DNA of 64,000 bases, taken from Gammaproteobacteria bacterium. GTDB lineage: Bacteria; Pseudomonadota; Gammaproteobacteria; JBCCGL01. Each line of letters starts with the position of its first letter. Positions within the stretch are counted from its first letter, which is position 1. Position numbers and translations under genes: made by a program. The stretch covers positions 2,784,001 through 2,848,000 of the forward strand of contig OZ255836.1 of assembly GCA_965277715.1 (NCBI GenBank), given 5' to 3'. Shown in pieces: positions 8,447-42,025 of this stretch. The notes below the pieces were generated by a model. The model did not search any database. It was not told where the DNA came from and saw only the letters and a program-made list of their open reading frames with translations.

Positions 8447-8464
8447 TAATTAACCCCTTTTCCT

Positions 8465-8848: not shown

Positions 8849-8854
8849 AGGCGG

Positions 8855-20151: not shown

Positions 20152-20476
20152 TCTACGCAACTATGTAACCCTCTAAATGCCTTTAGAAAATTAACGATGG
20201 CCTCTGGATCCATTTTCGATTGAGGGAATTTATGCTTAAGAATTAAAAAAAAATTAATTAAAATTGGTTGCCCCTGAAATTTTCTGCTACTCTAACTATA
20301 GTTAGAAAACAATAATACTAAATATCAAAGGCCTCTGTATTGTTTTTAGTATCAAAATGAGAAAAGTATAGCGATATGAATCAGCCACTTACAAAAATAT
20401 CTCAATACTTGGGAAGAATTAAGAGGCCACCTCATAATAATGTTACAGAGGTCTTTGGCCTTTGTAACATACTGTT
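20152..20476 (+). repeat. attI-like platform, copy 1 of 4
   Basis: Near-identical to 28400-28722, 30509-30746 and 40239-40430; ends TGTTACAGAGG-tctttgg-CCTTTGTAACA-TACT-GTT; IHF-consensus match AATCAGCCACTTA at 20379-20391. Confidence 0.8.
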
Positions 20477-20501
20477 AGCTTCTCCGGAGAAATAGAGAAT
20501 T

Positions 20502-21257: not shown

Positions 21258-21323
21258 CAAAGCGCTGCTGTCGGACAAATTCTCCGCTGCACTCCAAATT
21301 TGCCGTAGAGCGCGGCGTTATGC
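21252..21323 (+). other. Integron attC site
   Basis: R'' AGCTAAC ... imperfect palindrome ... R' GTTATGC, 72 bp; R'' complements GTTAGCT at the cassette start (20474). Confidence 0.92.
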
Positions 21324-21374
21324 AAGACGACTGACCTTCATCAGATGTAACAATGTAGCTACGCTGGAAACTAA

Positions 21375-23993: not shown

Positions 23994-24002
23994 CAAAGCA
24001 AT

Positions 24003-24074
24003 GCATAACAAGGCGCTGCTGTCGGACAAATTTTCCGCTGCGCTCCAAATTTGCCGCAGAGCGCGGCGTTAGAT
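24003..24074 (+). other. Integron attC site
   Basis: R'' GCATAAC ... R' GTTAGAT; near-identical to 21252-21323; R'' complements GTTATGC at 21317. Confidence 0.92.
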
Positions 24075-24181
24075 GCCAAATGGAGTTCTGATTTGAGACC
24101 TGTATATTTTCTTTTTTTACTATCTATTTCTGGTGTTTTGTGGGCACAACAAATGAAAAGGGGTCAATCCTATTTAAAATG

Positions 24182-25196
24182 AAAAGGGGTCAATCCTATT
24201 TAATATTTTCAAAATAGTATAAATTTAAACGATGCCTAAACCTACTCGAATACAATACGAAAATGCCTACTACCACGTTATGAATCGTGGCAAAGCCAGA
24301 CAGACCATCTTTCATGGCGAAATTTACTACCAGGCATTTCTACAAACGCTCGATGAAGCACATAAACGCTTTGATGCCTACATCCACGCTTACTGTTTGA
24401 TGGGTAATCATTATCATCTATTGATCGAAACCCCTCGTGCTAATCTGGATCGCATCATGCGGCATATCAATGGTATCTACACACAACGCTACAACCGGCT
24501 TAGACGCACGGATGGGCCTCTTTTTCGCGGTCGTTATAAAGCGATTATTGTGGATGCAGACGACTACTTATTACCCTTAAGCCGTTACATTCATCGTAAC
24601 CCAATAGAAGTAAAGGGTGTAACAGCAGATAAGCTCGATAGCTATTCCTGGTCGAGTTACCACGCTTACATCAACCAAGCCAAAGCACCGGAATGGTTGT
24701 ATCGAGAGGCAACCTATAGTGCACTCGGCGCTAAACAACGTTACGTTGCTTATAAGACATATGTTGGTCAAGGTATTGATGAGGGCATTAGCCGTTTTTA
24801 TAACAAAGGCAATGTGACGACGATACTGGGTGACAAATCCTTCAAGACGTATATTGCCGAAAACCGGGAGTCGATGCACATATCGGGGGACTTGTCCCGT
24901 ATTGTGACGGACAAGCCAAACGGTGCAGCTATAGTCGATGCAGTGGCAGCGGTGTTTGGCGTTAACGCGAGTGATGTACTTACGCGACAGCGGGGGAGAC
25001 AACGGGCGAATCTGCCTCGTAAAGTAGCGATATATTGTTGTCAGCAATTGGGAGATATGCCGTTAAAAACGCTGGTTGAGTAGCCTTTCTCCTGCAATTG
25101 ATTATGTAAAGAGTGGGCTGTCAACGGCGGCGTGAAGGGCGTGTTTGAGCAGGTTTGCAACCGTTTGAAAAATATTAAATACGATTGACCCCTTTT
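24182..25196 (+). mobile_element. RAYT-like element type B, copy 1 (small 3' deletion gives a premature stop; CDS 24232-25083)
   Basis: TIR AAAAGGGGTCAATC / GATTGACCCCTTTT; left end duplicated (26 bp, 24151-24202); HUH and YIHRNP motifs. Confidence 0.85.
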
Positions 25197-25390
25197 TTTT
25201 CGCTCACTCAAATGGGCGAGTTTTTAATCCCAGTGGAAGTTGATCAAAGTTTCAAAAGTTAACAGGACAGCAGTGAATTACAAAATAAAAAATTCAGAAA
25301 ATAAAATATCTGGCCAATCTTTGGCGGTGTATTTTTATAATACTTTTTAAGAACTTTTTGTGTTTAACTTTTTACCTTGGAGGATAAAAA

Positions 25391-26851
25391 TTGATTAATA
25401 TAGATAATGATACAAAAGAGCCTCATTTTGGGCGTCTTCTGCTGCCAAGCAATATTGCAGACAAAGAGTTAGATCTCTCTGTATATGTTCATCGACAAGA
25501 GTGCCATGAAAAGATAGTTCAGCAAATAATCAGCTCTTACAAACAAAGAACCACAGGTGCGATTGCAATATGTGGCTCTCCAGGATCCGGAAAGTCAACG
25601 ATAGTAAGGTTTTTATATGATTATCTATCTAGCCAAAAAGAATTCACCCCGACCATTACCAGCATAGACTTTGAAGACGATGTTGGCTTCCCTCAAGGTT
25701 TGCACCCCAAACCCTTGCTTGCTGATCACTTTGCAAGTTTCTTTTCTAGGTTAGAAAGAGAGTTAGTTGCGGCAGGATCAACTCTTAACCCATTGAGAGA
25801 AAAAATTAGACCTCTGCAAAAAAGATATAAAAAATTTTTCGAGAATATAAAAGAAGAATATCCTAATAACAATCAACTAGAAATAGCTTTTGATGCTGTT
25901 CGAGATGCAATTTTCCCTAGAATAGCCACTATCGACAAAGAGTTGGTAATTTTCTGTGATAATTTAGATTTTCTTACAGCCTCTGATCAAATATTTTTTA
26001 TTGGTATGCTAGGAATGATGACAGAGACAAATAATAAAATAAAGTGCGTTTTTACTTCCAGGCCACTAACAACAGCTAGAATTAGAAAGACGTTCCACGA
26101 TTATTTAAATAAAAAGCTACTAAGCGACAATTGTTTGGAAGATATAAGCGTAGGTGATTTTTTGGGAAAAAGATTTTCCGTGTCTGACTATATATTGAAG
26201 GATGTATTTAGCATAGAGAATTTGGAAATTATCAGAAAACTATCTGCCGGAAATAACCAAGATATATTGAACAATGTAGGATCACTTTTTAATTACTATA
26301 AAAAAAACCCGGATTTATTTCCTCTAAATAATCAAGATATGATGAGGTATCTTATTTTGGTGGAAAATGCTGTATCTAACCCAATACAGCATATAAATCA
26401 AGATGATGAAGTTCCATTAAAGTGGGTGATCATGTCCTTTCTGGTAGGAAAAATACCTATTGATTTATCTTTTTATGAACGCTTGAAACTTTTTATCGAT
26501 TCAATGACTGGAAAAATCGCAAGGAGAGTAGATAGGCAGAGGGTTGAATCAATTATATTTGAAATGATAAAAGGAGATTACTTTATTCGCCGGATTGACT
26601 TTATTAATCAAGAAATAGATGGGAGAAATCTAGCCAACCACCCGGAGCGTGTTGATGGCTCGATATGTTGCCTTACCGAGCGTGGTTTACTTATGTTTCA
26701 GAGCACAAAATTAATAACAGAAGTTTACCCTAACTTCTCATCCTATAGAAACTCGGTTAGAAAGTTTATTGGGAAATACGATACCAGCTCACATAAATTT
26801 TTCAGTGAAAATAACATGCTTGGCGAAAGCTGGATGGTTTATAAAAAATGA
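25391..26851 (+). CDS. P-loop NTPase, putative defence protein
   Basis: Walker A GSPGSGKST, Walker B IFCDNLD; very low GC; TTG start uncertain. Confidence 0.7.
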   Translation: MINIDNDTKEPHFGRLLLPSNIADKELDLSVYVHRQECHEKIVQQIISSYKQRTTGAIAICGSPGSGKSTIVRFLYDYLSSQKEFTPTITSIDFEDDVGFPQGLHPKPLLADHFASFFSRLERELVAAGSTLNPLREKIRPLQKRYKKFFENIKEEYPNNNQLEIAFDAVRDAIFPRIATIDKELVIFCDNLDFLTASDQIFFIGMLGMMTETNNKIKCVFTSRPLTTARIRKTFHDYLNKKLLSDNCLEDISVGDFLGKRFSVSDYILKDVFSIENLEIIRKLSAGNNQDILNNVGSLFNYYKKNPDLFPLNNQDMMRYLILVENAVSNPIQHINQDDEVPLKWVIMSFLVGKIPIDLSFYERLKLFIDSMTGKIARRVDRQRVESIIFEMIKGDYFIRRIDFINQEIDGRNLANHPERVDGSICCLTERGLLMFQSTKLITEVYPNFSSYRNSVRKFIGKYDTSSHKFFSENNMLGESWMVYKK

Positions 26852-27324
26852 ATTGGCATAATATCAATTATATTTCGGGGTCAAAATTTTTTATTTTTGC
26901 CAGCGTCGCTCATACTTTATTTGTTTTCGCTCTTAATATTGGAATATCCGAAGACATTTTAAACATAAGCACAAAACTAGCCGTAGTTGTAAATATGATC
27001 GTATTTATATATGTTCAATCTTCTTATGTAATATGCCCGGGGCCCCTAAAAGGAATTAAAAGTCTAAAACAGTTTTACGATGCTCATGTTTTTGAATTAG
27101 AAACAGAGTTAATGAAGATTGAATATATAAACCATCATTCAATTAAAGATGTTACAGAAGCCAGTGAAAAAGAAGATATATTGTTTTTTCATTTTAAAAA
27201 AGCTGATGACTCTCTTTCTCGTGTTAGATATTTTCTTACAACTATTTTAATTACAGCTCTAATATTCTATATTGCGATATCATTTATAGGCTTTTTTACC
27301 GTCATTAATGGAATATATTCGTGA
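26848..27324 (+). CDS. Membrane protein (about 3 TM) translationally coupled to the NTPase
   Basis: ATGA overlap; hydrophobic segments at both ends. Confidence 0.65.
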   Translation: MNWHNINYISGSKFFIFASVAHTLFVFALNIGISEDILNISTKLAVVVNMIVFIYVQSSYVICPGPLKGIKSLKQFYDAHVFELETELMKIEYINHHSIKDVTEASEKEDILFFHFKKADDSLSRVRYFLTTILITALIFYIAISFIGFFTVINGIYS

Positions 27325-27357
27325 CTGTCACCTAATTTTGTAATTATTTCATGAGTC

Positions 27358-28396
27358 AAAAGGGGTCAATCTTATTTAATATTTTCAAAATAGTATAAAT
27401 TTAAACGATGCCTAGACCTACTCGAATACAATACGAAAATGCCTACTACCACGTTATGAATCGTGGCAAAGCCAGACAAACCATCTTTCATGGCGAAATT
27501 TACTACCAGGCATTTCTACAAACGCTCGATGAAGCACATAAACGCTTTGATGCCTGCATCCACGCTTACTGTTTGATGAGTAATCATTATCATCTATTGA
27601 TCGAAACCCCTCGTGCTAATCTGGATCGCATCATGCGGCATATCAATGGTATCTACACACAACGCTACAACCGGCTTAGACGCACGGATGGGCCTCTTTT
27701 TCGCGGTCGTTATAAAGCGATTATTGTGGATGCAGACGACTACTTATTACCCTTAAGCCGTTACATTCATCGTAACCCAATAGAAGTAAAAGGTGTAACA
27801 GTGGATAAGCTCGATAGCTATTCCTGGTCGAATTACCACGCTTACATCAACCAAGCCAAAGCACCAGAATGGTTGCATCGAGAGGCAACCTATAGTGCAC
27901 TCGGCGCTAAACAACGTTACGTTGCTTATAAGACATATGTTGGTCGAGGTATTGATGAGGACATTAGCCGTTTTTATAACAAAGGCAATGTGGCGACGAT
28001 ACTGGGTGACAAATCCTTCAAGACGTATATTGCCGAAAACCGGGAGTCGATGCACATATCGGGGGACTTATCCCGTATTGTGACGGACAAGCCAAACGGT
28101 GCAGCTATAGTCGATGCAGTGGCAGCGGTGTTTGGCGTTAACGCGAGTGATGTACTTACGCGACAGCGGGGTAAACAACGGGCGAATCTGCCTCGTAAAG
28201 TAGCGATATATTGTTGTCAGCAATTGGGGGATATGCTGTTAAAAACGCTGGTTGATATGTTTGAATATAGTCGTGTTAGTAGCCTTTCTCCTGCAATTGA
28301 TTATGTAAGGAGTGGGCTATCAGACGGCAGCTTGAAGGGCGTGTTTGAGCAGGTTTGCAACCGTTTGAAAAATATTAAATACGATTGACCCCTTTT
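27358..28396 (+). mobile_element. RAYT-like element type B, copy 2 (intact)
   Basis: Perfect 14-bp TIR; the stop codon lies inside the right TIR. Confidence 0.88.
27408..28388 (+). CDS. Y1 HUH transposase with DnaA_C-like HTH, full length
   Basis: YHVMNRG, NHYHLL, RYIHRNP, YSWS; C-terminus PRKVAIYCCQQLGD. Confidence 0.9.
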   Translation: MPRPTRIQYENAYYHVMNRGKARQTIFHGEIYYQAFLQTLDEAHKRFDACIHAYCLMSNHYHLLIETPRANLDRIMRHINGIYTQRYNRLRRTDGPLFRGRYKAIIVDADDYLLPLSRYIHRNPIEVKGVTVDKLDSYSWSNYHAYINQAKAPEWLHREATYSALGAKQRYVAYKTYVGRGIDEDISRFYNKGNVATILGDKSFKTYIAENRESMHISGDLSRIVTDKPNGAAIVDAVAAVFGVNASDVLTRQRGKQRANLPRKVAIYCCQQLGDMLLKTLVDMFEYSRVSSLSPAIDYVRSGLSDGSLKGVFEQVCNRLKNIKYD

Positions 28397-28399
28397 TTT

Positions 28400-28722
28400 T
28401 CTACGCAACTATGTAACCCTCTAAATGCCTTTAGAAAGTTAACGATGGCTTCTGGATCCATTTTCGGTTGAGGGAATCTATGCTTAAGAATTAAAAAAAT
28501 TAATTAAAATTGGCTGCCCCTAAAATTTTCTGCTACTCTAACTGTAGCTAGAAAACAATAATACTAAATATCAAAGGCCTCTGTATTGTTTTTAGTATCA
28601 AAATGAGAAAAATATAGCGATATGAATCAGCCACTTACAAAAATTTCTCAATACTTGGGAAGAATTAAGAGGCCACCTCATAATAATGTTACAGAGGTCT
28701 TTGGCCTTTGTAACATACTGTT
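28400..28722 (+). repeat. attI-like platform, copy 2
   Basis: Begins directly after the RAYT right-end T tract; identity with copy 1 ends a few bases after GTT (28720). Confidence 0.8.
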
Positions 28723-28744
28723 AGATTCATCATAGAAGTTTTGA

Positions 28745-29659
28745 GTGAAAAATAACAATCTCTATATAATCGGTAATGGATTCGATATCTATCATGGGAT
28801 TCCCTCACGTTATTCGGATTTCAAGGAGTATTTGAAATCAAGTAATCAAACCCTGCATGATCACGTCATCGAGTATCTTCCTGTAGAAGAAAACTGGTGT
28901 GATCTTGAGGTCGCTTTTGCGCACCTAGATGTTGATAATGTAATTGATGAAGCAATGCAGTATCTTCAAACATATTCTGCTGAGAATTGGAGTGATTCGT
29001 TTCATCATGACTATCAATTTGAGCTTGATAAGATAGTTTCGGATCTTTCTAGCGGCCTAAAGTCATATTTTTGTGAATGGATAACTCACCTTGAATTACC
29101 GTCACCCAATAGCCTTCCATGTGAGCCACTTCGAATAAATAGGAAAGGATGTTTTTTAACCTTTAATTACACAAGAACACTTCAATGTGTCTACGGTGTG
29201 GGCAATGATAATGTCATACATATACATGGTGAGTCCGAACAAGGTGAGTCTGAAATAGTATTAGGGCACTCCTGGAATCCAGAAGAAATCTCTGATCTAA
29301 ATGATGTTCCAAATCCAGAGGATATGGACACAAGGGTTATGGAAGGGAATGAAATAGTAAATGACTATCTTGGAAAAACCTTTAAGCCATCAAAGAAAAT
29401 AATCGAAGATAATGCGTTTTTCTTTTCTAATCTCTCCAGCGTTAATAAAGTATATGTTCTAGGTCACTCCATGTCAGAGGTTGACCTCCCTTACTTTGAA
29501 GAGATAAGAGGGAATGTTAACGAAAACGCTGAATGGATCGTGACTTACTACGGAGAAGAAGAGCTTGATCGTCACAAAGAAACGATCCGAAGCCTAGGAA
29601 TAGAGAATGTCAGATTTTGTGACTTTTCAGATATTACAAAAGGGGGCAATCCTATTTAA
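28745..29659 (+). CDS. abiH: AbiH-family abortive infection protein (last codons supplied by the RAYT end)
   Basis: LYIIGNGFDIYHG..SRYSDF, LTFNYT, HIHG, VLGHSMSEVD. Confidence 0.85.
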   Translation: MKNNNLYIIGNGFDIYHGIPSRYSDFKEYLKSSNQTLHDHVIEYLPVEENWCDLEVAFAHLDVDNVIDEAMQYLQTYSAENWSDSFHHDYQFELDKIVSDLSSGLKSYFCEWITHLELPSPNSLPCEPLRINRKGCFLTFNYTRTLQCVYGVGNDNVIHIHGESEQGESEIVLGHSWNPEEISDLNDVPNPEDMDTRVMEGNEIVNDYLGKTFKPSKKIIEDNAFFFSNLSSVNKVYVLGHSMSEVDLPYFEEIRGNVNENAEWIVTYYGEEELDRHKETIRSLGIENVRFCDFSDITKGGNPI

Positions 29660-30340
29660 TATTTTCAAAATAGTATAAATTTAAACGATGCCTAGACCTA
29701 CTCGAATACAATACGAAAATGCCTACTACCACGTTATGAATCGTGGCAAAGCCAGACAGACCATCTTTCATGGCGAAATTTACTACCAGGCATTTCTACA
29801 AACGCTCGATGAAGCACATAAACGCTTTGATGCCTGCATCCACGCTTACTGTTTGATGGGTAATCATTATCATCTATTGATCGAAACCCCTCGTGCTAAT
29901 CTGGATCGCATCATGCGGCATATCAATGGTATCTACACACAACGCTACAACCGGCTTAGACGCACAGATGGGCCTCTTTTTCGCGGTCGTTATAAAGCGA
30001 TTATTGTGGATACAGACGACTACTTATTACCCTTAAGCCGTTACATTCATCGTAACCCAATAGTGGCAGCGGTGTTTGGCGTTAACGCGAGTGATGTACT
30101 TACGCGACAGCGGGGGAGGCAACGGGCGAATCTGCCTCGTAAAGTAGCGATATATTGTTGTCAGCAATTGGGAGATATGCCGTTAAAAACGCTGGTTGAT
30201 ATGTTTGTATATAGTCGTGTTAGTAGCCTTTCTCCTGCAATTGATTATGTAAAGAGTGGGCTGTCAGACGGCAGCTTGAAGGGCGTGTTTGAGCAGGTTT
30301 GCAACCGTTTGAAAAATATTAAATACGATTGACCCCTTTT
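29638..30340 (+). mobile_element. RAYT-like element type B, copy 3, with in-frame 336-bp internal deletion (CDS 29688-30332)
   Basis: Both TIRs present (left has one substitution); YIHRNPI joined to VAAVFG. Confidence 0.85.
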
Positions 30341-30349
30341 TGTTCTTTT

Positions 30350-30505
30350 TGTTTTCATCGTCTTCTTTCAGCAAACGCAAGGTCTTTATGTCCTCGATAT
30401 TCTGATCATGGTTTGCCAACGCCTGCCGAAATCGTGCCACGGATAACCCCGTGTAACGCTACAGCATAGTCACCAGCAATAGCGTAGTCGATACCATCGC
30501 TTTCA
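30350..30505 (-). pseudogene. Internally deleted nucleotidyltransferase-like remnant
   Basis: LESDGIDYAIAGDYAVALHGVIRGT then ...NIEDIKTLRLLKE, resembling both ends of small NTase-fold proteins. Confidence 0.4.
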
Positions 30506-30508
30506 AGG

Positions 30509-30746
30509 TTAAGAATTAAAAAAATTAATTAAAATTGGCTGCCCCTGAAATTTTCTGCTACTCTAACTGTAGCTAAAAAACAATAATACTAAATATCAAA
30601 GGCTTCTGTATTGTTTTTAGTATCAAAATGAGAAAAATATAGCGATATGAATCAGCCACTTACAAAAATTTCTCAATACTGGGAAGAATTAAGAGGTCAC
30701 CTCATAATAATGTTACAGAGGTCTTTGGCCTTTGTAACATACTGTT
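30509..30746 (+). repeat. attI-like platform, copy 3 (5'-shortened)
   Basis: Same sequence, ending TGTAACATACT-GTT at 30744. Confidence 0.8.
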
Positions 30747-30800
30747 ATATGGCATCTGAAACGACTGTACAATCTCCCAAAAATAACGATTGAGGCGAAT

Positions 30801-33071: not shown

Positions 33072-33075
33072 ACTG

Positions 33076-34401: not shown

Positions 34402-36602
34402 TAGAGGAATATCAGCGCCTTGATAAGCGTGTACAAAAATGGTTATTTAATCAGGGATGGCCTGATTTAAGAGAAATACAAAAACGGTCAATTGCACCAA
34501 TTCTGTCAGGTGATAGAGATGTACTGATTAGTGCGTCAACAGCGGCAGGTAAAACAGAAGCTTTTTTTCTGCCCGCATGTAGCTCTATTGCTGAAGAGGA
34601 AAACGGCTTTGGTATTTTGTATATCAGTCCTTTAAAAGCATTGATTAACGATCAGTACCGCAGGCTCGAATCGTTAAGTGAAATGTTGGATATGCAGGTT
34701 ACGCCGTGGCACGGTGATAGCCTTCACTCCAAAAAGAAGAAAGCTAGAAGCAACCCTTCAGGTATTCTGCTTATTACCCCTGAATCCCTGGAATCCCTCT
34801 TAGTTAGAGAGCCGGGATGGGTCAAGCAATCCTTCACCTCACTCAAATATATCGTCATTGATGAATTTCATGCGTTTATCGGAACAGAACGAGGACAGCA
34901 ATTACTTTCTCTGCTTACCCGCCTCGAACACTTAACTGGTCGAATCTCTAATCCCATTCCACGGGTTGCACTAAGTGCGACACTCGGAGAGCTTGAAAAA
35001 GTACCGTTATCTCTCAGGCCGAATAAAAGTCTGCCTTGTGAAACCATTACCAGTAGCCAGCACCAAAGCACTATTAAAGTTCAGGTTAAAGGATATTTAG
35101 AACCTGTAGATATTTTGGCTGATGATACACACACATCTGCAGAACAGCAGATTTGTCAGGAAATATTTAGGCTCTGTAGAGGCGACTCACATCTGGTATT
35201 TGCAAATAGCCGTAGCCGAACAGAAAGCATTGCTGCACAGTTAAGTGATTTATGCGAACAACAAGTTGTACCGAATGAGTTTTTCCCTCATCACGGCTCA
35301 TTAGCCAAAGAACTCAGAGAAGATCTAGAAGCCAGATTACAGAAGGAAACCCTACCTACTACAGCTATTTGTACCATGACCCTAGAGCTAGGTATCGACA
35401 TTGGAAAAGTGAGTTCCATCATTCAGGTTACTGCTCCACACTCAGTATCAAGTTTACGTCAACGATTAGGTCGATCTGGTAGAAGGAATTCCCCTTCCAT
35501 ATTGCGTATGCTTATTTCTGAAGATGAACTAAGTGATAAATCTAATATAGTAGATGATCTTAGATTAGAGCTGGTTCAATCACTAGCAATGATACGTTTG
35601 CTGATTGTAGATAACTGGTTTGAACCGGCAGATACAGAGCAAATGCATCTCTCTACCTTTTTACATCAGATTCTAGCTGTCATTGCGCAATGGGGTAGCG
35701 TCAGAGCAGACCAGCTTTATTCTTTATTATGTGAGCAAGGGTCGTTCAAAGAAATATCAATTCAGCACTTCAAGCAACTATTGTCCCATATGGGGACAGT
35801 CCAACTAATACAGCAACTCAATAGCGGTGAGTTGGTTTTAGGAATTGAAGGTGAACGTCTTACCAATTCCTATACCTTCTATGCTGTCTTTAAAACACCA
35901 GAAGAATTCCGTATTGTTACCGGAGGCAAAACACTCGGTACGCTACCTGTTGATTCATTACTCCTTAAAGATCAGCACATTATATTTGGTGGCCGTAGAT
36001 GGAAGGTCACGGATATTGACGATGAAAAGAAAGTCATCTATGTGACTTCTACAAAGGGCGGTAAACCTCCCAAATTTAACGGTAACGGCATGTCGATTCA
36101 TGACAGGGTTCGACAAGAGATGCTAAGTATCTATTGCACAGGTGACTATCGTATTGAGGTTGGTAACCAGAAAATAGATTTTGTAGATGATCTCGGAAAG
36201 CAGTTATTTCAAGATGGAGCATATTTTTTTAAAGAAGCCAACCTTGAAAACCAACCTATCTATCAAAGCGGTAAGTATAGTTATATTTTTTCATGGATGG
36301 GCGATAAAGTAGTTAACACCCTTACCGTTTTGCTCATTAGAAGTGGGTTTGTATGCAGTAATTTTGCTGGCGTTATTGAAGTTCAGAATTCGAGTGTCGA
36401 TGACATAAAAAATTGCTTAATAGATATAGCAAAAGATGATCTACTGGATGAAACCGAACTGGCTGGAATACTTTCATTAAATCAAAAGCTTATAGAAAAA
36501 TATGATGAGTATCTACCTGATGATTTACTAACCGAATGCTATGGACTAAAAGCATTTAATTCTAGGATTACTAAACAGTGGATATTAAGCAACCTTGTCT
36601 GA
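34398..36602 (+). CDS. Lhr-like DEAD/DEAH-box helicase
   Basis: TAAGKTEA, DEFH, LSAT, HHGSL, LELGIDIG, QRLGRSGRR. Confidence 0.9.
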   Translation: MIEEYQRLDKRVQKWLFNQGWPDLREIQKRSIAPILSGDRDVLISASTAAGKTEAFFLPACSSIAEEENGFGILYISPLKALINDQYRRLESLSEMLDMQVTPWHGDSLHSKKKKARSNPSGILLITPESLESLLVREPGWVKQSFTSLKYIVIDEFHAFIGTERGQQLLSLLTRLEHLTGRISNPIPRVALSATLGELEKVPLSLRPNKSLPCETITSSQHQSTIKVQVKGYLEPVDILADDTHTSAEQQICQEIFRLCRGDSHLVFANSRSRTESIAAQLSDLCEQQVVPNEFFPHHGSLAKELREDLEARLQKETLPTTAICTMTLELGIDIGKVSSIIQVTAPHSVSSLRQRLGRSGRRNSPSILRMLISEDELSDKSNIVDDLRLELVQSLAMIRLLIVDNWFEPADTEQMHLSTFLHQILAVIAQWGSVRADQLYSLLCEQGSFKEISIQHFKQLLSHMGTVQLIQQLNSGELVLGIEGERLTNSYTFYAVFKTPEEFRIVTGGKTLGTLPVDSLLLKDQHIIFGGRRWKVTDIDDEKKVIYVTSTKGGKPPKFNGNGMSIHDRVRQEMLSIYCTGDYRIEVGNQKIDFVDDLGKQLFQDGAYFFKEANLENQPIYQSGKYSYIFSWMGDKVVNTLTVLLIRSGFVCSNFAGVIEVQNSSVDDIKNCLIDIAKDDLLDETELAGILSLNQKLIEKYDEYLPDDLLTECYGLKAFNSRITKQWILSNLV

Positions 36603-36714
36603 GTGGCCAATCTGCAAATAAAAGGGTTATATGTGGACCCGCAGTTAAATTCAACAATTTTTTAATCGTTTATTCATTTTTTAGCGTTCAGTTCAGTCAC
36701 AGTAAATAAGACAG

Positions 36715-37557
36715 AAAGGGGGCAGGTTAGTTATTTAACATAGATTATGTCAATATCACCCCATGCCAAGGCCTCACCGCATAGAATATGAAAACGCCTT
36801 CTACCATATAATGAACCGTGGTCGGGAGCGTAAGACGGTTTTTCATAGCGAAGCTTACTACCAAGCGTTTCTCGCCACATTGACCGAAGCCGCAGAGCGT
36901 TTTCACGCCGTGATTCACGCTTATTGCCTAATGGGCAACCACTACCACCTACTGCTGGAAACACCTGATGCTAACCTCAGTCGCATTATGCAGCATATCG
37001 ATGGTGTCTATACACGGCGTTATAACCGCCTTAAAAAAACGGATGGTCCTCAGTTTAGAGGGCGATTTAAAGCCATCAATGTCGATGAACATGCGTATCT
37101 ATTACCCCTGTCTCGCTATCTACATAGAAACCCCATTGAGACTAAAAAAATAACCTATCGACGGTGTTAGGTGACAAGGTGTTCCGCTCACAGTTGGCCG
37201 AGTACAAAGAAAGCCAGAGTGGCGTTGATGTGTGGTCCCAATTGCGGGAAAAGGTAGCCAGCAGTGTGATAGTAAAAACGCTGGCAAATTGTTGCCGAGT
37301 GAGTGAAGGCAGTGTTTCGGATAGTCAAGGTAAGGGAGGTAGCGCGAACACTCAACGCAAATTGGCCATGTACTATTACCAGCGATTTGGTAGTATGTCG
37401 TTAAAGGCGATTACTCAACATTTTGGGTTAAGTCACCCTGGTGGTGTGTCGAGTGCAATAGCTCACGTCAAGAAGGCGCTAGACAAGGGGGAACTTAAAG
37501 AGGTGGTGCATCAAATTGAAAACCAGCTAAATAGTAAATAACTTGCCTGATCCCTTT
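36715..37557 (+). mobile_element. RAYT-like element type A, copy 2, frameshifted by a ~190-bp deletion
   Basis: Near-identical to 4893-5925; split ORFs 36763-37170 and 37164-37541; degenerate TIRs. Confidence 0.85.
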
Positions 37558-37670
37558 GATCGTATTAACACCAACTTTATGGCCACTGTGGTAACTAATG
37601 TTTTATATTGGTGCCAAGTGATGAATAAATGTTACCATTTTGTGCCAATGATATCCCCACATAATCCCTA

Positions 37671-38723
37671 ATGACCCTGCTGATTCTTTATCTGGCGCTC
37701 GCAATCGGAGTTTCTTTTCTCTGCTCCATTCTGGAGGCCGTATTGCTCTCGATGACTCCAGCGTATATGGAGCAAATCAAATCGAAGAAACCACGGCTCG
37801 GGGCCAGACTGGCGCGGATCAAGGAGCGGCTGGACGAATCGCTTGCCAGCATTCTGATACTCAATACTTTTGCCCATACTATGGGAGCCGCTGGTGTCGG
37901 CTCACAGGCGCTGCAGGTGTTCGGTCAGAAATGGGAAACGCTGATCGCGATATTATTGACTCTGGCAATTCTCTATTTTTCTGAGATTATACCCAAGACT
38001 CTGGGGGCTACTTTTTGGCGGCAACTGGCGCTGCCTTCCGCCATTTTGATCTCTTGGCTGGTCAAACTGGTGTTTCCACTGGTGTGGATATCGACCCGTT
38101 TGACGAAGTTAATCAGCGGCAATAAGGAGAATGAAATTACCCGAGAGGAGATTATTGCCCTGGCCTCCCTCGGTCACAAGGACGGTAATCTGTTTTCCCA
38201 GGAAAACGAGTATCTGCTGAATCTGTTAAACCTGCGCAAGGTGAGAACCGAGGGGATATTCACCCCCCGGTCGGTAGTACACATGTTGCACCAAAATGTG
38301 ACCGTCAAAGAAGCTCTGGATGACCCGGAGAGTCAACAATTTACCCGGATTCCTGTCTACGGCGACAGCGTTGATGATATTAAGGGCAAAGTGATTCGAC
38401 CGGATTTATTCGAGGCGGAACGCAACGGTCAGGGCGGGGCCTGCGTAGGCGATTACATCAAGCCACTTTCCCGCGTGTCAGAAAAACTGCCGGTCCAGCA
38501 TCTGCTGGATTTATTTATCCGGCAAAAAGCGCATATGTGTCTGGTAGAGGATGAATTCGGTCAAACCGCCGGGATCGTTACCCTGGAAGACGCGATCGAA
38601 ACCCTGTTAGGTAAAGAAATTGTCGATGAGCGGGACACGGTGGAAGACATGCAGGAACTGGCGCGGGATAAATACCGCGCGCGTTTGCGCAAAGAGAAAT
38701 CCCGGCGAAAATCGGACGGTTAA
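37671..38723 (+). CDS. CNNM/DUF21-CBS (hemolysin/CorC-like) membrane protein
   Basis: SFLCSILEAVLLS, SEIIPKTLG, TPRSV, FTRIPVY, DEFGQTAGIVTLED. Confidence 0.92.
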   Translation: MTLLILYLALAIGVSFLCSILEAVLLSMTPAYMEQIKSKKPRLGARLARIKERLDESLASILILNTFAHTMGAAGVGSQALQVFGQKWETLIAILLTLAILYFSEIIPKTLGATFWRQLALPSAILISWLVKLVFPLVWISTRLTKLISGNKENEITREEIIALASLGHKDGNLFSQENEYLLNLLNLRKVRTEGIFTPRSVVHMLHQNVTVKEALDDPESQQFTRIPVYGDSVDDIKGKVIRPDLFEAERNGQGGACVGDYIKPLSRVSEKLPVQHLLDLFIRQKAHMCLVEDEFGQTAGIVTLEDAIETLLGKEIVDERDTVEDMQELARDKYRARLRKEKSRRKSDG

Positions 38724-38789
38724 ATGAAAAGCAAACACAGGTGCGAAACCTGATGCGTAAAGTGTCGCAACAGAATCAAAAGACAAAAG

Positions 38790-39492
38790 AAAAGGGGTCA
38801 ATTCTATTTAATATTTTCAAAATAGTATAAATTTAAACGATGCCCAGACCTACTCGAATACAATACGAAAATGCCTACTACCACGTTATGAATCGTGGCA
38901 AAGCCAGACAGACCATCTTTCATGGCGAAGTTTACTACCAGGCATTTCTACAAACGCTCGATGAAGCACATAAACGCTTTGATGCCTACATCCACGCTTA
39001 CTGTTTGATGGGTAATCATTATCATCTATTGATCGAAACCCCTCGTGCTAATCTGGATCGCATCATGCGGCATATCAATGGTATCTACACACAACGCTAC
39101 AACCGGCTTAGACGCACGGATGGGCCTCTTTTTCGCGGTCGTTATAAAGCGATTATTGTGGATACAGACAACTACTTATTACCCTTAAGCCGTTACATTC
39201 ATCGTAACCCAATAGTGGCAGCGGTGTTTGGCGTTAACGCGAGTGATGTACTTACGCGACAGCGGGGGAGACAACGGGCGTATCTACCTCGTAAAGTAGC
39301 GATATATTGTTGTCAGCAATTGGGAGATATGCCGTTAAAAACACTGGTTGATATGTTTGGATATAGTCGTGTTAGTAGCCTTTCTCCTGCAATTGGTTAT
39401 GTAAAGAGTGGGCTGTCAGACGGCAGCTTGAAGGGCGTGTTTGAGCAGGTTTGCAACCGTTTGAAAAATATTAAATACGATTGACCCCTTTT
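38790..39492 (+). mobile_element. RAYT-like element type B, copy 4, same in-frame deletion as copy 3 (CDS 38840-39484)
   Basis: TIRs AAAAGGGGTCAAT / ATTGACCCCTTTT; identical deletion junction CCCAATAG|TGGCAGCG. Confidence 0.85.
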
Positions 39493-39660
39493 TTTAGTTG
39501 CTGAAGTTTTGGACGATTTGCTCTAACATTTCTTGGTACATATGTTGATAGATTCGGGGATTTTGACAACCTCGTAGAATGTGCAACTTGGTTCGCAGGC
39601 GACGGCGGTCAGACTGTGAACGGCGACGCTTCAACATCCACACAAAGTAATGAGGTTAAT

Positions 39661-39855
39661 ATGAATATAGATACAATTGCTTATTCCAACGAATTTTGCA
39701 AGAACTGCGGTACGAATTCACCCCGTGAAACCACAAAATCTGGTAACGATGATACAGGTGTAGTTACGACTGTATATTGCAAGGGCTGTAAAAAATTTAA
39801 CCGCATAGAGACCGATTCATCTGGTTCAATTGTCGCCGAACAATATGACCTGTAA
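39661..39855 (+). CDS. Small zinc-ribbon protein
   Basis: RBS GAGG, CKNC...CKGC. Confidence 0.55.
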   Translation: MNIDTIAYSNEFCKNCGTNSPRETTKSGNDDTGVVTTVYCKGCKKFNRIETDSSGSIVAEQYDL

Positions 39856-39890
39856 TCGTGCCATCACTAACAAAGGAGGCAGCATCGAGC

Positions 39891-40091
39891 GCCACTTCCT
39901 TAAGCGGTAAGCATTTGGTATATATCCGATAAAATTTAGATATAAGTGGCTCATTTTTGTTTTTTGGGATGCCCATATCTTTTAACAGCTTCCCTTGCTA
40001 CAGGCCTTGGCTGCATGAGTAAAAGGCAAGGTTTTGGGCTTCGCTTAACAGCCCTTGGCTCTACTCGACTGGGACGATTACCCACACAGTT
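39891..40091 (-). mobile_element. IS4 3' remnant related to 962-2527
   Basis: Minus strand NCVGNRPSRVEPRAVKRSPKPCLLLMQPR...GHPKKQK*; partial TIR CACTTCCTTAAGC. Confidence 0.8.
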
Positions 40092-40238
40092 ATTTTATGG
40101 GCAGTTATTTTATGGGTGTCTACTTTTTGTGAGCACTTATAGTGCGCTTGCTGTATCGACGCACCTGCATAAATTCAGATATAGACGTGAGAAATGGTGA
40201 TTTACTCATAGCGAAGTCCTTTTCGAAAACCATAAATA

Positions 40239-40430
40239 TGCTATTCTAACTGTGGCTGGAAAACAACAATACTAAATATCAAAGGTCTCTGTATTATTTT
40301 TAGTATCAAAATGAGATAAAATATAGCGATATGAATCAGCCACTTACAAAAATGTCTCAATACTGGTAAGAATTAAGAGATCACCTCATAATAACGTTAC
40401 AGAGGTCTTTGGCCTTTGTAACATACTGTT
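40239..40430 (+). repeat. attI-like platform, copy 4 (shortest and most diverged)
   Basis: Ends TGTAACATACT-GTT at 40428. Confidence 0.8.
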
Positions 40431-40458
40431 ATAAGTCATTCGGAGTTACTTTAATATA

Positions 40459-40740
40459 ATGATAGGGAAGAATATTTTGGTTGGCCTCACTTACGTTGAT
40501 AAAAATAATGAAGTAACAGATAAATTACAGCTTCATGGGAAAATAGTATCAACAAGTGAGAGTACGTTGACTTTTGAACGTTCAGATAATGGCCATGAAT
40601 TCTCTATTCCCTTTGATGGTGATCTCGAGGAAACTGATCCAGAATTTATATACACACTTAAATCTACGGGTGAGGACGTTACTGGGGTAAATTATATTTC
40701 GTCATTAAATATACATCAGGGTGAGGAAAATGACTTATAA
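40459..40740 (+). CDS. Gene cassette: hypothetical acidic protein
   Basis: Lies between the platform GTT and an attC; stop codon inside R''. Confidence 0.75.
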   Translation: MIGKNILVGLTYVDKNNEVTDKLQLHGKIVSTSESTLTFERSDNGHEFSIPFDGDLEETDPEFIYTLKSTGEDVTGVNYISSLNIHQGEENDL

Positions 40741-40796
40741 CAAGTCAGAGCAAGTGGACGCGCAAAAAGTGCGTGCCATTGCTTGAAACGTTAGAG
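40735..40796 (+). other. Integron attC site
   Basis: R'' TTATAAC ... R' GTTAGAG, 62 bp; AATGACTTATAAC is the exact 13-nt reverse complement of the cassette start GTTATAAGTCATT. Confidence 0.88.
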
Positions 40797-40811
40797 CTCA
40801 AGGGGAGGTTT

Positions 40812-41327
40812 ATGCCAAGCAATAGCCTATCGCTACTTTCGTTAGAAATTCATGTCGAGATTTGGCAAGTAGTTATAGGATATACATGCGTTGTGATCTT
40901 TATTGCAACTGCAATTTTGACCTTACTTGCAATCTCAGGCGTACATGCGTTAGCAGATAAGAAATATCGAGACTATTTGTTTAAAGTGCTTGTACTAGAG
41001 ATTGTCGCAATCGCAATGCTCGTATTTTCCGATATAGCGCGTATAACCCCTCCAAGTTCAATATCTATTTATCCTGTCGAAAGCGCAGCTTTGGGATGCG
41101 ATACAGGAAGACCAGAAGCATTTTGTAATATCGGTGATATTGCTGTCTCAGGCGGGGGGCAGTGTGGGTTTTGCGGAGGTGTAGGGCGTTTCGAAGCTAC
41201 TTTTCCAATAGCTAAAGATATTGGCGGCATAAATAGAAGTGGCTGGAGTATACAGTGTGATGAAAATGGCGATAACCGATATGATGGCGGCAAGGCTATT
41301 GTTTACTGTCAAAAAATCGGGCCCTAA
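40812..41327 (+). CDS. Gene cassette: two-TM protein with Cys/Gly-rich C-terminal domain
   Basis: RBS GGGAGG before ATG 40812; FCNIGDIAVSGGGQC...GWSIQC...VYC. Confidence 0.7.
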   Translation: MPSNSLSLLSLEIHVEIWQVVIGYTCVVIFIATAILTLLAISGVHALADKKYRDYLFKVLVLEIVAIAMLVFSDIARITPPSSISIYPVESAALGCDTGRPEAFCNIGDIAVSGGGQCGFCGGVGRFEATFPIAKDIGGINRSGWSIQCDENGDNRYDGGKAIVYCQKIGP

Positions 41328-41409
41328 CAAAGCAATTGCACGCAGACGTCAAAAAGCGTCGCTCGTTCCTCGCTATGCTTTTTGTCTCCGATGAATTGCG
41401 GCGTTATGT
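41322..41409 (+). other. Integron attC site
   Basis: R'' CCCTAAC ... GCAATT/AATTGC and AAAAAGC/GCTTTTT arms ... R' GTTATGT, 88 bp. Confidence 0.88.
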
Positions 41410-41671
41410 CCATTTCAAATTTCAAGAAATTTCAAGAGGAATTTTAAGAACAGACACTATATGAAGAACTACAAAATTCACCTAAAAATAAAAAATAGTA
41501 TTTAGAGTAATCAACCCTGGCTTTTTTTATCTATATTGCGAATTATTCAGCGTGATGGCCCAGTTATTGGGCTTTTTTTTATTAATAAATTTTTTCAGAC
41601 AAGGTAAAAACAGCCCACTGTGAATGGGGTGAGAAAATCCAAGAAATTAGAAGAGTAAAGCGGTTGAATGA

Positions 41672-41908
41672 CTATCCGGTATCAGCAGCAATTACCCTGT
41701 GAGATAACGCCTTCCAATAACGTGATTCAAAATGCTGGGTGTTGTTTAGCCAGTTCTCTCTGTCAATGTTGAGTCGTTGCAATATTGGCGGCAGGTCTTG
41801 AGCAATATAGCCCCGCTTGTCTTGCCGAATAGCTCTACCTGTCCAGTCAACTAAAGTCAGATAGTCAGTAAAACTTAGCGGAATGCCGGTAGACGTGTCG
41901 TTAAATGG
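41672..41908 (-). pseudogene. C-terminal remnant of a different Y1/RAYT-related transposase
   Basis: DYLTLVDWTGRAIRQDKRGYIAQDLPPILQRLNIDRENW. Confidence 0.7.
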
Positions 41909-42025
41909 TCTCGGAGAAATGCAGAAGTGGTTTTAATGGGGCATTGAACTGCTGTAGTTCTTCAAAGAGTTTGTTTATGCCTGTCCCAGGAATTCAGCAA
42001 TTTGCACAGGCAGCTTAGAAAGGGT

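What the first reader, a model, noticed from the sequence alone, without database searches (positions are those of the whole stretch)
24068..41908. Two-tier gene-capture architecture: RAYT ends appear to cut, carry and stack integron segments
Seen: the order is platform-cassettes | RAYT | NTPase+TM | RAYT | platform-AbiH | RAYT | platform-Ter triad | RAYT | CNNM | RAYT | platform-cassettes. Breakpoints coincide with element ends: the third cassette is cut ~80 bp after its GTT (24068-24150), platform copy 2 begins at the right-end T tract (28400), and AbiH loses its attC at a left end. The platform itself holds a related motif (AATTGGYTGCCCCT). Inference: the HUH element amplifies attI-plus-cassette units while IntI loads them, building a modular defence island. 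I do not know of this combination being described.
Basis: inference. Interest (0 to 1): 0.85.

Follow-up and report, generated by a model that had tools for sequence, protein, structure and literature searches.

The report
Integron-like defence array riddled with transposons
A 22-kb low-GC island holds integron-type gene cassettes carrying phage-defence genes, four copies of one cassette-insertion site with no integrase nearby, and five copies of a known type of small transposon that probably broke the array up rather than built it.

Summary
The repeat architecture is real. There are four copies of a ~195-nt non-coding core ("platform"), and all four end at the same ...CTG|TTA. Four canonical attC sites are present. 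There are five TIR-bounded elements in two families, plus defence cargo: Mrr-like, PDC-S06, a STAND-like NTPase, AbiH and Shango SngABC.

The first 6 nt after a platform or attC are the reverse complement of that cassette's own attC R''. This holds exactly in 3 cases and with 1 mismatch in a 4th. The platform end is therefore a recurrent integron-type crossover site, attI-like. No intI lies in the window.

The "RAYT" is a TIRYT/TIRtron, described in 2013 and 2018 (Y1 HUH, DnaA_C-like HTH, GGGGWSAS inverted repeats). It behaves as a discrete insertion sequence. Only one copy is intact, and two copies share an identical 336-nt deletion.

Of the three platforms that lie downstream of an element, only platform 2 abuts an element end. 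Its 5' edge is the same nucleotide as platform 1's, so an element-end event probably made one duplication.

Best reading: an integrase-less, multi-attI cassette array colonised and rearranged by insertion sequences. Active "carry and stack" is not supported. Complex class 1 integrons are a precedent. Interest is moderate.

The parts
20152..20477 (+). Platform copy 1 (long form). The conserved core is about 20285-20477. It ends CTG|TTA with the crossover G at 20474, and cassette 1 starts with TTAGCT at 20475.
   Evidence: junction rule
20475..21317 (+). Cassette 1: Mrr_cat / PDC-S02-like nuclease (ORF 20502-21257) plus attC 21252-21323. R'' is AGCTAAC, the reverse complement of GTTAGCT; R' is GTTATGC.
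21318..24068 (+). Cassette 2: 872-aa AAA_13 / PDC-S06 ATPase (ORF 21375-23993) plus attC 24003-24074. R'' is GCATAAC, the reverse complement of GTTATGC; R' is GTTAGAT.
24156..25200 (+). IS-A copy 1 (TIRtron). It carries a 26-nt tandem duplicate of the left end. The ORF is broken by a 23-nt and a 1-nt deletion (283 aa).
25391..27324 (+). STAND/AAA_16-like NTPase (25391-26851) and a 158-aa membrane protein (26848-27324). Possibly the body of cassette 3. No attC follows.
27358..28399 (+). IS-A copy 2, the only intact one. 326 aa with Y1_Tnp (HYH motif and RYIHRNP tyrosine) plus a DnaA_C-like HTH. The TIR is about 29 nt.
28400..28723 (+). Platform copy 2 (long form, 96% identical to copy 1). Homology begins at the element's right end. 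The crossover G is at 28720.
28745..29659 (+). AbiH, essentially full length. Its last codons run into IS-A copy 3.
29638..30343 (+). IS-A copy 3, with a 336-nt in-frame internal deletion (214 aa).
30347..30508 (-). Frameshifted fragment of a minus-strand gene. I judged it nucleotidyltransferase-like by eye only.
   Evidence: translations; no family search was run on it
30509..30747 (+). Platform copy 3. The crossover G is at 30744, and the next unit starts with TTATAT.
30801..36602 (+). Shango system: SngA (TerB_N/TerB/TerB_C), SngB (BrxC/D-like ATPase) and SngC (DEAD helicase). No attC was found after it.
36715..37560 (+). IS-B copy, the second TIRtron family. It is 95-98% identical to the copy at 4890-5925, has an internal deletion and a frameshift, and is inserted into a fragment of another repeat (36673-36710).
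37671..38723 (+). CNNM/CBS membrane protein.
38790..39495 (+). IS-A copy 5, with the same 336-nt deletion as copy 3.
39616..40091 (+). 79-aa ORF, followed by an attC-like 5' half (CACTAACAAAGG...) that is cut by a fragment 72% identical to the DDE IS end (39893-40091).
40239..40431 (+). Platform copy 4 (core only, 92-93% identical to the others). The crossover G is at 40428, and the next unit starts with TTATAA.
40429..41403 (+). Two cassettes. The first is a 93-aa ORF with attC 40735-40796 (R'' TTATAAC, R' GTTAGAG). The second is a 184-aa ORF with attC 41322-41409 (R'' CCCTAAC, 1 mismatch to the expected CTCTAAC; R' GTTATGT).

Best explanation
The island (20152 to about 41960; GC 0.42 against 0.51 for the rest of the window) is an integrase-less, integron-type cassette array that stores phage-defence genes. 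By the IntegronFinder definition it would be called as two CALINs. It is unusual in holding four copies of an attI-like 'platform'. The platform is a ~195-nt conserved non-coding core with candidate promoters and a 13-19-bp hairpin, and it ends at a GTT crossover. Each copy has a different first cassette.

The array has been colonised by a multi-copy insertion sequence of the known TIRYT/TIRtron kind, in two families, and by fragments of two further repeats.

Shown: the cassette boundaries, the attC folds, the common crossover point, the discrete TIR-to-TIR copies and the element's identity.

Inferred:
- The elements landed as ordinary insertions, with local or tolerated hopping into a dispensable AT-rich region.
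- Recombination or aberrant excision at co-oriented copies then deleted attC sites and whatever lay upstream of the platforms, possibly including intI.
- At least once, such an event duplicated a platform-bearing segment, the P1/P2 long form.
- An IntI encoded elsewhere, or now lost, loaded different cassettes at each platform copy.
For: Cassette rule:
- GTTAGCT after P1 pairs with AGCTAAC.
- GTTATGC pairs with GCATAAC.
- GTTATAA after P4 pairs with TTATAAC.
- GTTAGAG pairs with CCCTAAC, with 1 mismatch.

attC sites: the four sites fold as single hairpins with a paired R box, an internal loop and one-sided bulges.

Platform: the four copies share an invariant 36-nt end against 0 expected. Their 5' extents are nested and differ.

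Defence cargo: SngA, SngB and SngC match at 3e-95, 6e-187 and 1e-269. AbiH, PDC-S06 and PDC-S02 also match.

Element identity:
- Y1_Tnp at 1e-15 plus Bac_DnaA_C.
- TIR AAAAGGGGTCAAT....
- 56 of 79 metagenome relatives carry a GGGGTCA TIR pair, mostly 1017-1100 nt apart (range 1010-1377).
- The family is described as TIRYT/TIRtron, subclass 2.1.2 (PMC3733652 and PMC6006769, passages).

Discrete mobility: IS-A3 and IS-A5 share an identical 336-nt deletion but have unrelated flanks.

Enrichment: there are 13 distinct IS-A ORF products on one 4.29-Mb contig, and read depth is about 8.7x. Four copies lie in 21.8 kb. My own binomial estimate is P about 5e-7.

Nested junk: a DDE-IS fragment at 39893-40091 and another repeat fragment at 36673-36710.

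Junction support: contigs from other samples carry P2-AbiH-IS, IS-P3, P3-Shango and IS-B-CNNM-IS.

Literature: IS occur in 23% of integrons and 12% of CALINs and are proposed to create CALINs (PMC4889954, passages).
Against: - No intI was found, so 'attI' rests on the junction rule alone. It could be tested for P1 and P4 only, because P2 and P3 lack a downstream attC.
- Depth in run X9 fits exactly four platform copies. No fifth copy beside an intI is evident in that genome, so the cognate integrase is missing, diverged or lost.
- P1 has no element to its left, yet it shares P2's 5' edge. Simple insertion plus IS-IS recombination explains this only with an extra step, the loss of an element.
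- All five elements point the same way, and three of four IS-A right ends have a platform within 750 nt. This is more order than random insertion predicts (a post-hoc estimate of about 0.01).
- No attC halves flank any element, so insertion into attC sites cannot be shown.
- The whole genome was not available.
Confidence: 0.6

Rival explanations
1. One reading: the Y1 HUH element itself cuts at its ends and mobilises or amplifies flanking attI-plus-cassette units. This would work by one-ended or read-through transposition, or by transfer of the flank from the cleaved right end. IntI then reloads the units.
For: - The 5' edge of P2 is the nucleotide after the IS-A2 right end. P1 has the same edge without an element.
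- Three of four IS-A right ends lie 0, 165 and 743 nt upstream of a platform.
- The 79-aa cassette may begin (TTAGTT against the expected TTAGTG) at the IS-A5 right end (by eye).
- IS-A is enriched in the island.
- HUH elements of another type (ISCR1) are linked to complex class 1 integrons (PMC3575428, search listing only).
Against: - The copies are clean TIR-to-TIR units, including a deletion derivative present twice.
- P3 and P4 are separated from the elements by unrelated DNA, and their homology starts at different points.
- The supposed end-like motif in the platform is within chance.
- There is no cargo duplication between element pairs apart from P1/P2.
- Relatives show no attC excess: 33 hits in 421 kb (0.078 per kb), against a false-hit rate of about 0.09 per kb in the window. 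No adjacent pair obeys the cassette rule.
- No transposition chemistry is known for TIRYTs (PMC3733652 passages).
Confidence: 0.12
2. The platform is not an attI. It is a portable promoter and structured-leader module, or a preferred secondary 'attG'-type site downstream of a promoter, that cassettes happened to enter.
For: - No intI lies beside any copy.
- Three plus-strand promoter-like sites are present.
- A long-range helix shows 1 compensatory and 3 wobble changes, all compatible on the plus strand only.
- IntI can insert cassettes at GWT genome sites, and these are expressed if they lie near promoters (bioRxiv 2022.09.11.507474, passages).
Against: - Four copies all use exactly the same nucleotide, with four different cassettes. 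This argues for a specific, high-affinity site rather than a loose GWT.
- The covariation is not significant: 210 of 500 shuffles reach it.
- There is no Rfam match.
Confidence: 0.15
3. The repeats are an assembly artefact, meaning collapsed or mis-joined repeats.
For: - The 0.7-1.0-kb repeats could mislead short-read assemblers.
- The public contigs all break at the repeats, so the order of the blocks is not independently confirmed.
Against: - The window lies in a 4.29-Mb contig.
- Run X9 pieces are identical to the window.
- Contigs from three other runs span the individual junctions platform-AbiH-IS, IS-platform 3, platform 3-Shango and IS-B-CNNM-IS.
- The copies differ by diagnostic substitutions.
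Confidence: 0.03
4. Integrative islands accreted in tandem at one att site, each bringing its own platform.
For: P1 and P2 share a sharp 5' edge.
Against: - No direct repeat of the junction sequence (9-mers or longer) occurs at the right end or before IS-A2.
- There is no integrase gene in the island.
- P3 and P4 have other 5' edges.
Confidence: 0.03

Closest known systems
CALIN / degraded sedentary chromosomal integron (Cury et al. 2016, PMC4889954; passages seen)
   Same: Clusters of canonical attC sites with promoterless cassettes in one orientation, no intI nearby, and IS inside or beside the array.
   Different: It holds four copies of an attI-like insertion site inside one array. Large multi-gene units (Shango, 5.8 kb) follow a platform. 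Most units lack an attC.
Complex class 1 integrons (In104 of SGI1 with two attI sites, PMC7056807 passages; ISCR1-linked forms, PMC3575428 listing only)
   Same: More than one attI in one island, each with its own cassette. Partial duplication of the platform is associated with an HUH-type element.
   Different: The sequences are unrelated. The element here is a Y1 TIRtron, not the IS91-like ISCR1. There is no intI or 3'-CS. The setting is chromosomal and environmental (sponge-associated), and the cargo is defence genes.
TIRYT / TIRtron (Di Nocera 2013, PMC3733652; Quentin 2018 subclass 2.1.2, PMC6006769; passages seen)
   Same: A Y1 HUH protein of about 320 aa with a DnaA_C-like HTH, flanked by inverted repeats carrying GGGGWSAS. 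Extra TIR copies sit next to the ends.
   Different: Here it is clearly multi-copy and IS-like, at about 9-13 copies. A non-autonomous derivative has moved, and the copies are concentrated in a cassette array.
Elements that target attC (group IIC-attC introns, PMC3001079 abstract in listing; IS1111-attC group, recalled, with only mentions seen in the listing)
   Same: Mobile elements sitting at the 3' ends of cassettes.
   Different: No attC halves flank the elements here, so targeting of attC is not shown. The chemistry is also different.
Defence cassettes in chromosomal integrons (bioRxiv 2024.07.02.601686; abstract and two passages seen)
   Same: Anti-phage systems stored as integron cassettes.
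   Different: That text does not mention Shango, AbiH or insertion sequences. Its supplements were not seen.

Membership tests
Integron (complete) | intI gene adjacent to attI | tested here: not met
   No tyrosine-recombinase domain was found in the 30 window ORFs scanned with Pfam. The gaps in the island are too small to hold an intI. The whole genome was not available.
Integron (complete) | attC sites with R''/R' (RYYYAAC/GTTRRRY), an L box, extrahelical bases and a hairpin | tested here: met
   Four sites of 62-88 nt fold as single hairpins with a paired TAAC/GTTA, an internal loop and one-sided bulges. Some heptamers depart from the strict RYYYAAC consensus.
Integron (complete) | Cassette rule: the first 6 nt of a cassette are complementary to its own R'' | tested here: met
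   Three junctions match exactly and one has a single mismatch.
Integron (complete) | attI: one specific site where cassettes enter at G|TT, bound by IntI | tested here: inconclusive
   All four platforms end at the same G|TTA with different cassettes. The rule was verified for P1 and P4. IntI binding cannot be tested here.
CALIN | At least 2 attC sites with no intI nearby | tested here: met
   The pairs are at 21252/24003 and 40735/41322. The definition is from PMC4889954.
TIRYT / TIRtron | Y1 HUH transposase fold with an HUH motif and a catalytic Tyr | tested here: met
   PF01797 at 1.2e-15, 58 bits against a cut-off of 23. NHYHLL and RYIHRNP are visible in the ORF.
TIRYT / TIRtron | Flanking terminal inverted repeats with GGGGWSAS | tested here: met
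   IS-B has GGGGTCAG, an exact match. IS-A has GGGGTCAA, which matches 7 of 8 positions. The TIRs are 23-29 nt. 56 of 79 relatives carry such a pair.
TIRYT / TIRtron | C-terminal HTH (Bac_DnaA_C, HTH_23 or HTH_28) | tested here: met
   PF08299 at 1.7e-6. At 28.4 bits it is just under the cut-off of 31.5, but the domain is precomputed for nearly all relatives.
RAYT (REP-associated) | Flanked by REP/REPIN palindromes and passes the RAYT model | tested here: not met
   NF047646 scores 58.1 bits against a cut-off of 80. The flanks are long TIRs, not REPs.
IS200/IS605 | No TIRs, subterminal hairpins, and a short TnpA of about 130-150 aa | tested here: not met
   NF033573 scores 25 bits against a cut-off of 55. 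The elements have 29-nt TIRs and a 326-aa protein.
Shango defence system | SngA (TerB), SngB (ATPase) and SngC (helicase) in one operon | tested here: met
   PADLOC gives near full-length matches, and the Pfam domains agree.
ISCR / IS91 rolling-circle elements | Y2 HUH transposase with oriIS/terIS ends | not tested
   The protein matches Y1_Tnp only. No IS91-type model was searched specifically.

The most novel reading that the evidence does not exclude
The platform is a portable attI-plus-promoter module, possibly with a structured leader, that has been multiplied inside one array. Several defence systems then each sit in the first, expressed position, making a 'multi-headed' integron. The copy boundaries were made by cleavage or recombination at TIRtron right ends. 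A Y1 HUH element and an integron recombinase would thus together build the island.
Probability: 0.15. Interest if true: 0.75.

Novelty: new variant of a known kind. Interest (0 to 1): 0.45.

Why it matters
Integrons are thought to have one attI and one Pc, so only the first cassettes are well expressed. An array with several attI-like heads would express several stored defence systems at once. It would also show how insertion sequences can remodel cassette arrays instead of only destroying them.

It gives a concrete case of a TIRYT element that behaves as an active insertion sequence. The mobility of this family has not been shown experimentally.

If instead this is only IS-driven decay of an old integron, it is an ordinary but well-resolved example of how CALINs arise.

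Tried and rejected
- Whole-genome search for intI: no genome is held.
- Rfam on 19.5-42.5 kb at E<=1: nothing.
- Platform 21-mer in viral contigs and metagenome contigs: 0 hits.
- Platform by blastn against plasmids and phages: no match.
- Flanking helicase used to find the locus in relatives: the best hit is 57% identical, in Bacteroidota, so no syntenic relatives were obtained and no empty site.
- TIRYT protein in 401 genomes sampled from the class of G001: 0 hits at 1e-60, so uninformative.
- Long-hairpin (attC-like) fold of the whole platform: not found.
- Platform as a protein-coding region: the 1-nt indels between copies argue against it (by eye).
- intI remnant upstream of P1/P2: I saw no convincing reading frame (searches were in the wrong frame; otherwise judged by eye).
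- att-type direct repeats at the island ends: none.
- A covariance model for attC could not be built, because MAFFT misaligned the four sites. A folding heuristic was used instead, with about 0.09 false hits per kb.
- AT-rich flank bias in relatives: a mean of -4.8 GC points, with 9 of 14 negative. This is weak.
- Read laying: X1 and X3 leave the NTPase/TM part uncovered. X1 also leaves Shango uncovered, and X3 leaves AbiH uncovered. No contig joins across these parts, so absence is not claimed.
- Joints with short sides are not relied on. These are 25196->36617 (side 28, into a repeated fragment) and 24071->38778 (side 23).
- One literature search was wasted because 'atti' matched 'attitude'.

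Full report
**1. What is there**

Repeat finding and a self-BLAST show three repeat systems between 20.1 and 42 kb.

(a) Five co-oriented copies of an element of about 1.04 kb.
- Four belong to family IS-A: 24182-25200, 27358-28399, 29638-30343 and 38790-39495. They are 98-99% identical over the first 426 nt.
- One belongs to family IS-B: 36715-37560. It is about 64% identical to IS-A and 95-98% identical to a sixth copy at 4890-5925 on the other strand.

(b) Four copies of a non-coding 'platform'.
- P1 is at 20152-20477, P2 at 28400-28723, P3 at 30509-30747 and P4 at 40239-40431.
- The alignment shows a ~195-nt core that is almost invariant in all four.
- The 5' extents are nested and differ. 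P1 and P2 share 133 nt more than P4, and P3 shares 49 nt more.
- The 3' end is sharp and common to all: ...GGCCTTTGTAACATACTGTTA. After it the four sequences differ.
- The last 36 nt occur 4 times in the window against 0 expected.

(c) Two 66-nt repeats at 21255 and 24006, 94% identical, which are attC sites.

The island has GC 0.416 against 0.512 for the rest of the window. All of its genes are on the + strand.

**2. The integron part is real**

A constrained-fold scan finds four attC-like hairpins in the island: 21252-21323, 24003-24074, 40735-40796 and 41322-41409.
- Each has a paired TAAC/GTTA R box, an internal loop, a long imperfect stem with one-sided single-base bulges, and a loop.
- The same heuristic gives 6 other hits in the 64-kb window (5 outside the island, 1 inside sngC). 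I take those as false, about 0.09 per kb.

The decisive test is the cassette rule. After integration, the 6 nt that follow the crossover G belong to the cassette and must complement the R'' of that cassette's own attC.
- P1 ends G|TTAGCT, and the next attC begins AGCTAAC.
- That attC ends G|TTATGC, and the following attC begins GCATAAC.
- P4 ends G|TTATAA, and the next attC begins TTATAAC.
- That attC ends G|TTAGAG, and the following attC begins CCCTAAC, one mismatch to CTCTAAC.

So cassettes have entered at the terminal GTT of the platform, as they do at an attI.

The platform as a whole does not fold as an attC. It has a strong terminal hairpin, followed 5 nt later by the GTTA box.

An attC-like 5' half (CACTAACAAAGG...) follows the 79-aa ORF. 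It is cut by a fragment 72% identical to the end of a DDE insertion sequence at 944-2545.

No attC follows the NTPase/TM pair, AbiH, Shango or CNNM.

**3. No integrase**

Pfam scans of 30 ORFs across the window found no tyrosine recombinase, and the island has no unassigned space for one. The genome itself is not held.

In the best-matching public run (X9), single-copy contigs have depth 211-285.
- The P1-type and P2-type variants of the long form have depths 195 and 269.
- The variant shared by P3 and P4 has depth 580.

This fits four copies and no fifth one elsewhere. Depth of contigs is a rough measure.

**4. Cargo**

PADLOC and Pfam results:
- Mrr_cat/PDC-S02-like nuclease.
- An 872-aa AAA_13 protein matching PDC-S06 end to end (3e-189).
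- A STAND/AAA_16-like NTPase with a small membrane protein. Neither has a PADLOC match.
- AbiH (Pfam 2e-70).
- A complete Shango operon: SngA 3e-95, SngB 6e-187, SngC 1e-269.
- A CNNM/CBS protein.
- Small ORFs without matches.

Defence systems in integron cassettes are in print (bioRxiv 2024.07.02.601686; abstract and two passages seen). Its main text does not mention Shango, AbiH or insertion sequences, and its supplements were not seen.

**5. The 'RAYT' is a TIRtron**

The intact ORF (326 aa, 27408-28388) has Y1_Tnp (1e-15), the HYH motif, the RYIHRNP tyrosine and a DnaA_C-like HTH. It fails the NCBIfam thresholds for RAYT (58 against 80 bits) and for IS200 TnpA (25 against 55 bits).

The inverted repeats:
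- IS-A is bounded by ~29-nt repeats, AAAAGGGGTCAATC[C/G]TATTTAATATTT.
- IS-B is bounded by AAAGGGGTCAGGC[T/A]AGTTATTTA.

This matches the TIRYT/TIRtron class of Di Nocera et al. 2013 (TIR motif GGGGWSAS; passages). It also matches subclass 2.1.2 of Quentin et al. 2018 (Bac_DnaA_C C-terminus; passages).

The family is very large. 7109 proteins passed E<=0.001 among 8000 scored candidates. In 56 of 79 metagenome loci encoding relatives, a GGGGTCA-type TIR pair lies mostly 1017-1100 nt apart (range 1010-1377), often with a further partial TIR beside it. The window's own IS-A1 and the copy at 4890-5925 show the same end duplication.

**6. How the elements behave here**

- Only IS-A2 is intact.
- IS-A1 has 23-nt and 1-nt deletions.
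- IS-A3 and IS-A5 carry the same 336-nt in-frame deletion but have unrelated flanks. A non-autonomous derivative therefore moved, or was recombined, as a TIR-to-TIR unit.

On the 4.29-Mb contig that holds the window, the protein collection records 13 distinct IS-A ORF products and 6 IS-B products. Depth suggests about 8.7 and 8.5 copies. Four IS-A copies in 21.8 kb (0.5% of the chromosome) is a strong excess. My own binomial estimate is about 5e-7.

No target duplication or common target is visible.

All six TIRtron copies in the window point along the locally G-rich strand. This would fit replication-coupled single-strand transposition as known for IS200/IS605 (recalled), but it could equally reflect gene orientation.

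**7. Do the elements carry and stack units?**

For:
- P2's homology with P1 begins within 1-3 nt of the IS-A2 right end. P1 has that same edge 15 nt after an intact helicase gene, with no element present.
- An edge shared to the nucleotide is unlikely for an independent insertion. It indicates that one duplication or deletion endpoint was set at an element end.
- Three of four IS-A right ends have a platform within 750 nt.

Against:
- P3 and P4 are separated from the elements by a minus-strand pseudogene fragment (165 nt) and by a cassette plus an IS fragment (743 nt). Their homology starts at other points.
- No cargo is duplicated between element pairs.
- The end-like motif in the platform is within chance: 13 hits against 3.3 expected for the loose pattern, of which 10 are element ends and 3 are copies of one platform sequence.
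- Relatives of the transposase show no excess of attC-like hairpins: 33 hits in 421,261 nt over 87 loci (0.078 per kb). By inspection, none of the same-strand neighbour pairs (L089, L090, L100, L114, L131) obeys the cassette rule. The detector is crude, so this is weak negative evidence.

IntI recombination cannot duplicate an attI, because the crossover lies at its right edge. This follows from the established integron mechanism. Some other process must therefore have multiplied the platform.

Unequal recombination between co-oriented element copies, or aberrant excision from a right end, is the simplest candidate for P1/P2. Recombination between co-oriented copies also explains why the left and right flanks of each element are unrelated and why attC sites are missing. 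These steps are inference.

**8. Independent support for the assembly**

Logan contigs of four runs were laid on 23000-42500.
- X9 pieces are identical to the window but break at every repeat, so the order of blocks is not independently confirmed.
- Contigs from other studies span P2-end/AbiH/IS-A3 left end (X1, X8), IS-A3 right end/P3 (X3), P3/Shango (X3, 17 differences) and IS-B/CNNM/IS-A5 (X1, X3).
- X1 and X3 carry about 1187 extra nt at the 3' end of attC 41322-41409. Its identity (a cassette or an element) could not be read.
- One X3 contig joins an IS-B right end to 41384, inside that attC, in the opposite orientation (side 40). I take this as a hint only.
- The holders are sponge metagenomes and two coded organisms.

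**9. Comparison with what is known**

- By definition the island is CALIN-like. Cury et al. report IS in 23% of integrons and 12% of CALINs, and propose that IS create CALINs (passages).
- Two attI sites with different cassettes occur in the complex class 1 integron of SGI1 (passages).
- ISCR1-linked complex integrons join an HUH element to integron duplication (search listing only).
- Cassette entry at non-att 'attG' sites near promoters is described (passages).
- A whole-word search for papers holding 'integron' plus at least one of the phrases 'two attI sites', 'multiple attI sites', 'second attI site' or 'attI x attI' returned 7 papers. Judged from titles and abstract starts, and from passages of PMC7056807 only, none describes a chromosomal array with several attI copies.
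- A full-text search for RAYT, DnaA, HUH and transposase listed papers whose titles and abstract starts do not link TIRYT or RAYT elements to integrons. The word 'integron' does not occur in the main text of PMC6006769.
- These searches cover open-access texts only.

**10. Verdict**

The most likely reading (about 0.6) is an integrase-less, multi-attI defence cassette array that has been colonised and rearranged by TIRtron insertion sequences.

The four-fold attI-like platform is the unusual feature and deserves follow-up. The two-tier capture mechanism is possible but unproven (about 0.12-0.15).

Noticed in passing
window 20330-20430 and the equivalent positions in the other three platforms (columns 51-57 and 144-150 of alignment A3): A 7-bp long-range helix in the platform core carries all four of its substitutions in pair-preserving form: one C-G to T-A double change and three G-T wobbles. 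They are compatible on the + strand only. The result is not significant with four sequences (210 of 500 shuffles).
   Followed up: partly
window 944-2545, 4674-4866, 39893-40091: A DDE (IS4-like, PF01609) insertion sequence with about 50-nt inverted ends. A 193-nt copy of its end (98% identical) abuts the right end of the TIRtron at 4890-5925. A 72% identical fragment lies upstream of platform 4. A solo TIRtron right end (ATTGACCCCTTTT) abuts the IS at 2531.
   Followed up: partly
window 36673-36710 and 8159-8196: A 38-nt piece of a further multi-copy repeat. The IS-B copy is inserted into it. In other genomic copies it continues GTTAGCAGTCATATATCC... (loose ends in runs X9 and X1).
   Followed up: partly
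window 41680-41934: Public contigs break here, and depth rises about 2.7-fold in X9 and much more in X3. This suggests another repeat at the distal end of the array. It has no second copy in the window.
   Followed up: no
window 41402-41413: Two sponge-metagenome runs carry about 1187 nt of extra DNA at the 3' end of attC 41322-41409. It may be a cassette or an element insertion, and it is a strain polymorphism at a recombination site.
   Followed up: partly
window 60851-62052: A tandem array of 174-nt units (94-97% identical) inside a very large ORF that runs off the window (59927-64000).
   Followed up: no
window 17909-20137: The PIF1-like helicase with a C-terminal HTH_40 that borders the island has its best relatives (57% or less) in Bacteroidota MAGs, so it may itself be acquired.
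   Followed up: partly
window 1-9000 and 9000-62000: Cumulative GC skew falls to about 8 kb and then rises. All six TIRtron copies point along the locally G-rich strand.
   Followed up: no
protein P0125 (elsewhere on the same 4.29-Mb contig): One member of the IS-A protein cluster is 492 aa long. It may be a fusion of the transposase with a neighbouring ORF.
   Followed up: no
window 2888-4699, 8465-8848, 57432-58673: An RHS-repeat protein, a PIN-domain protein and an ISL3 transposase. The window as a whole is rich in mobile and conflict genes.
   Followed up: no
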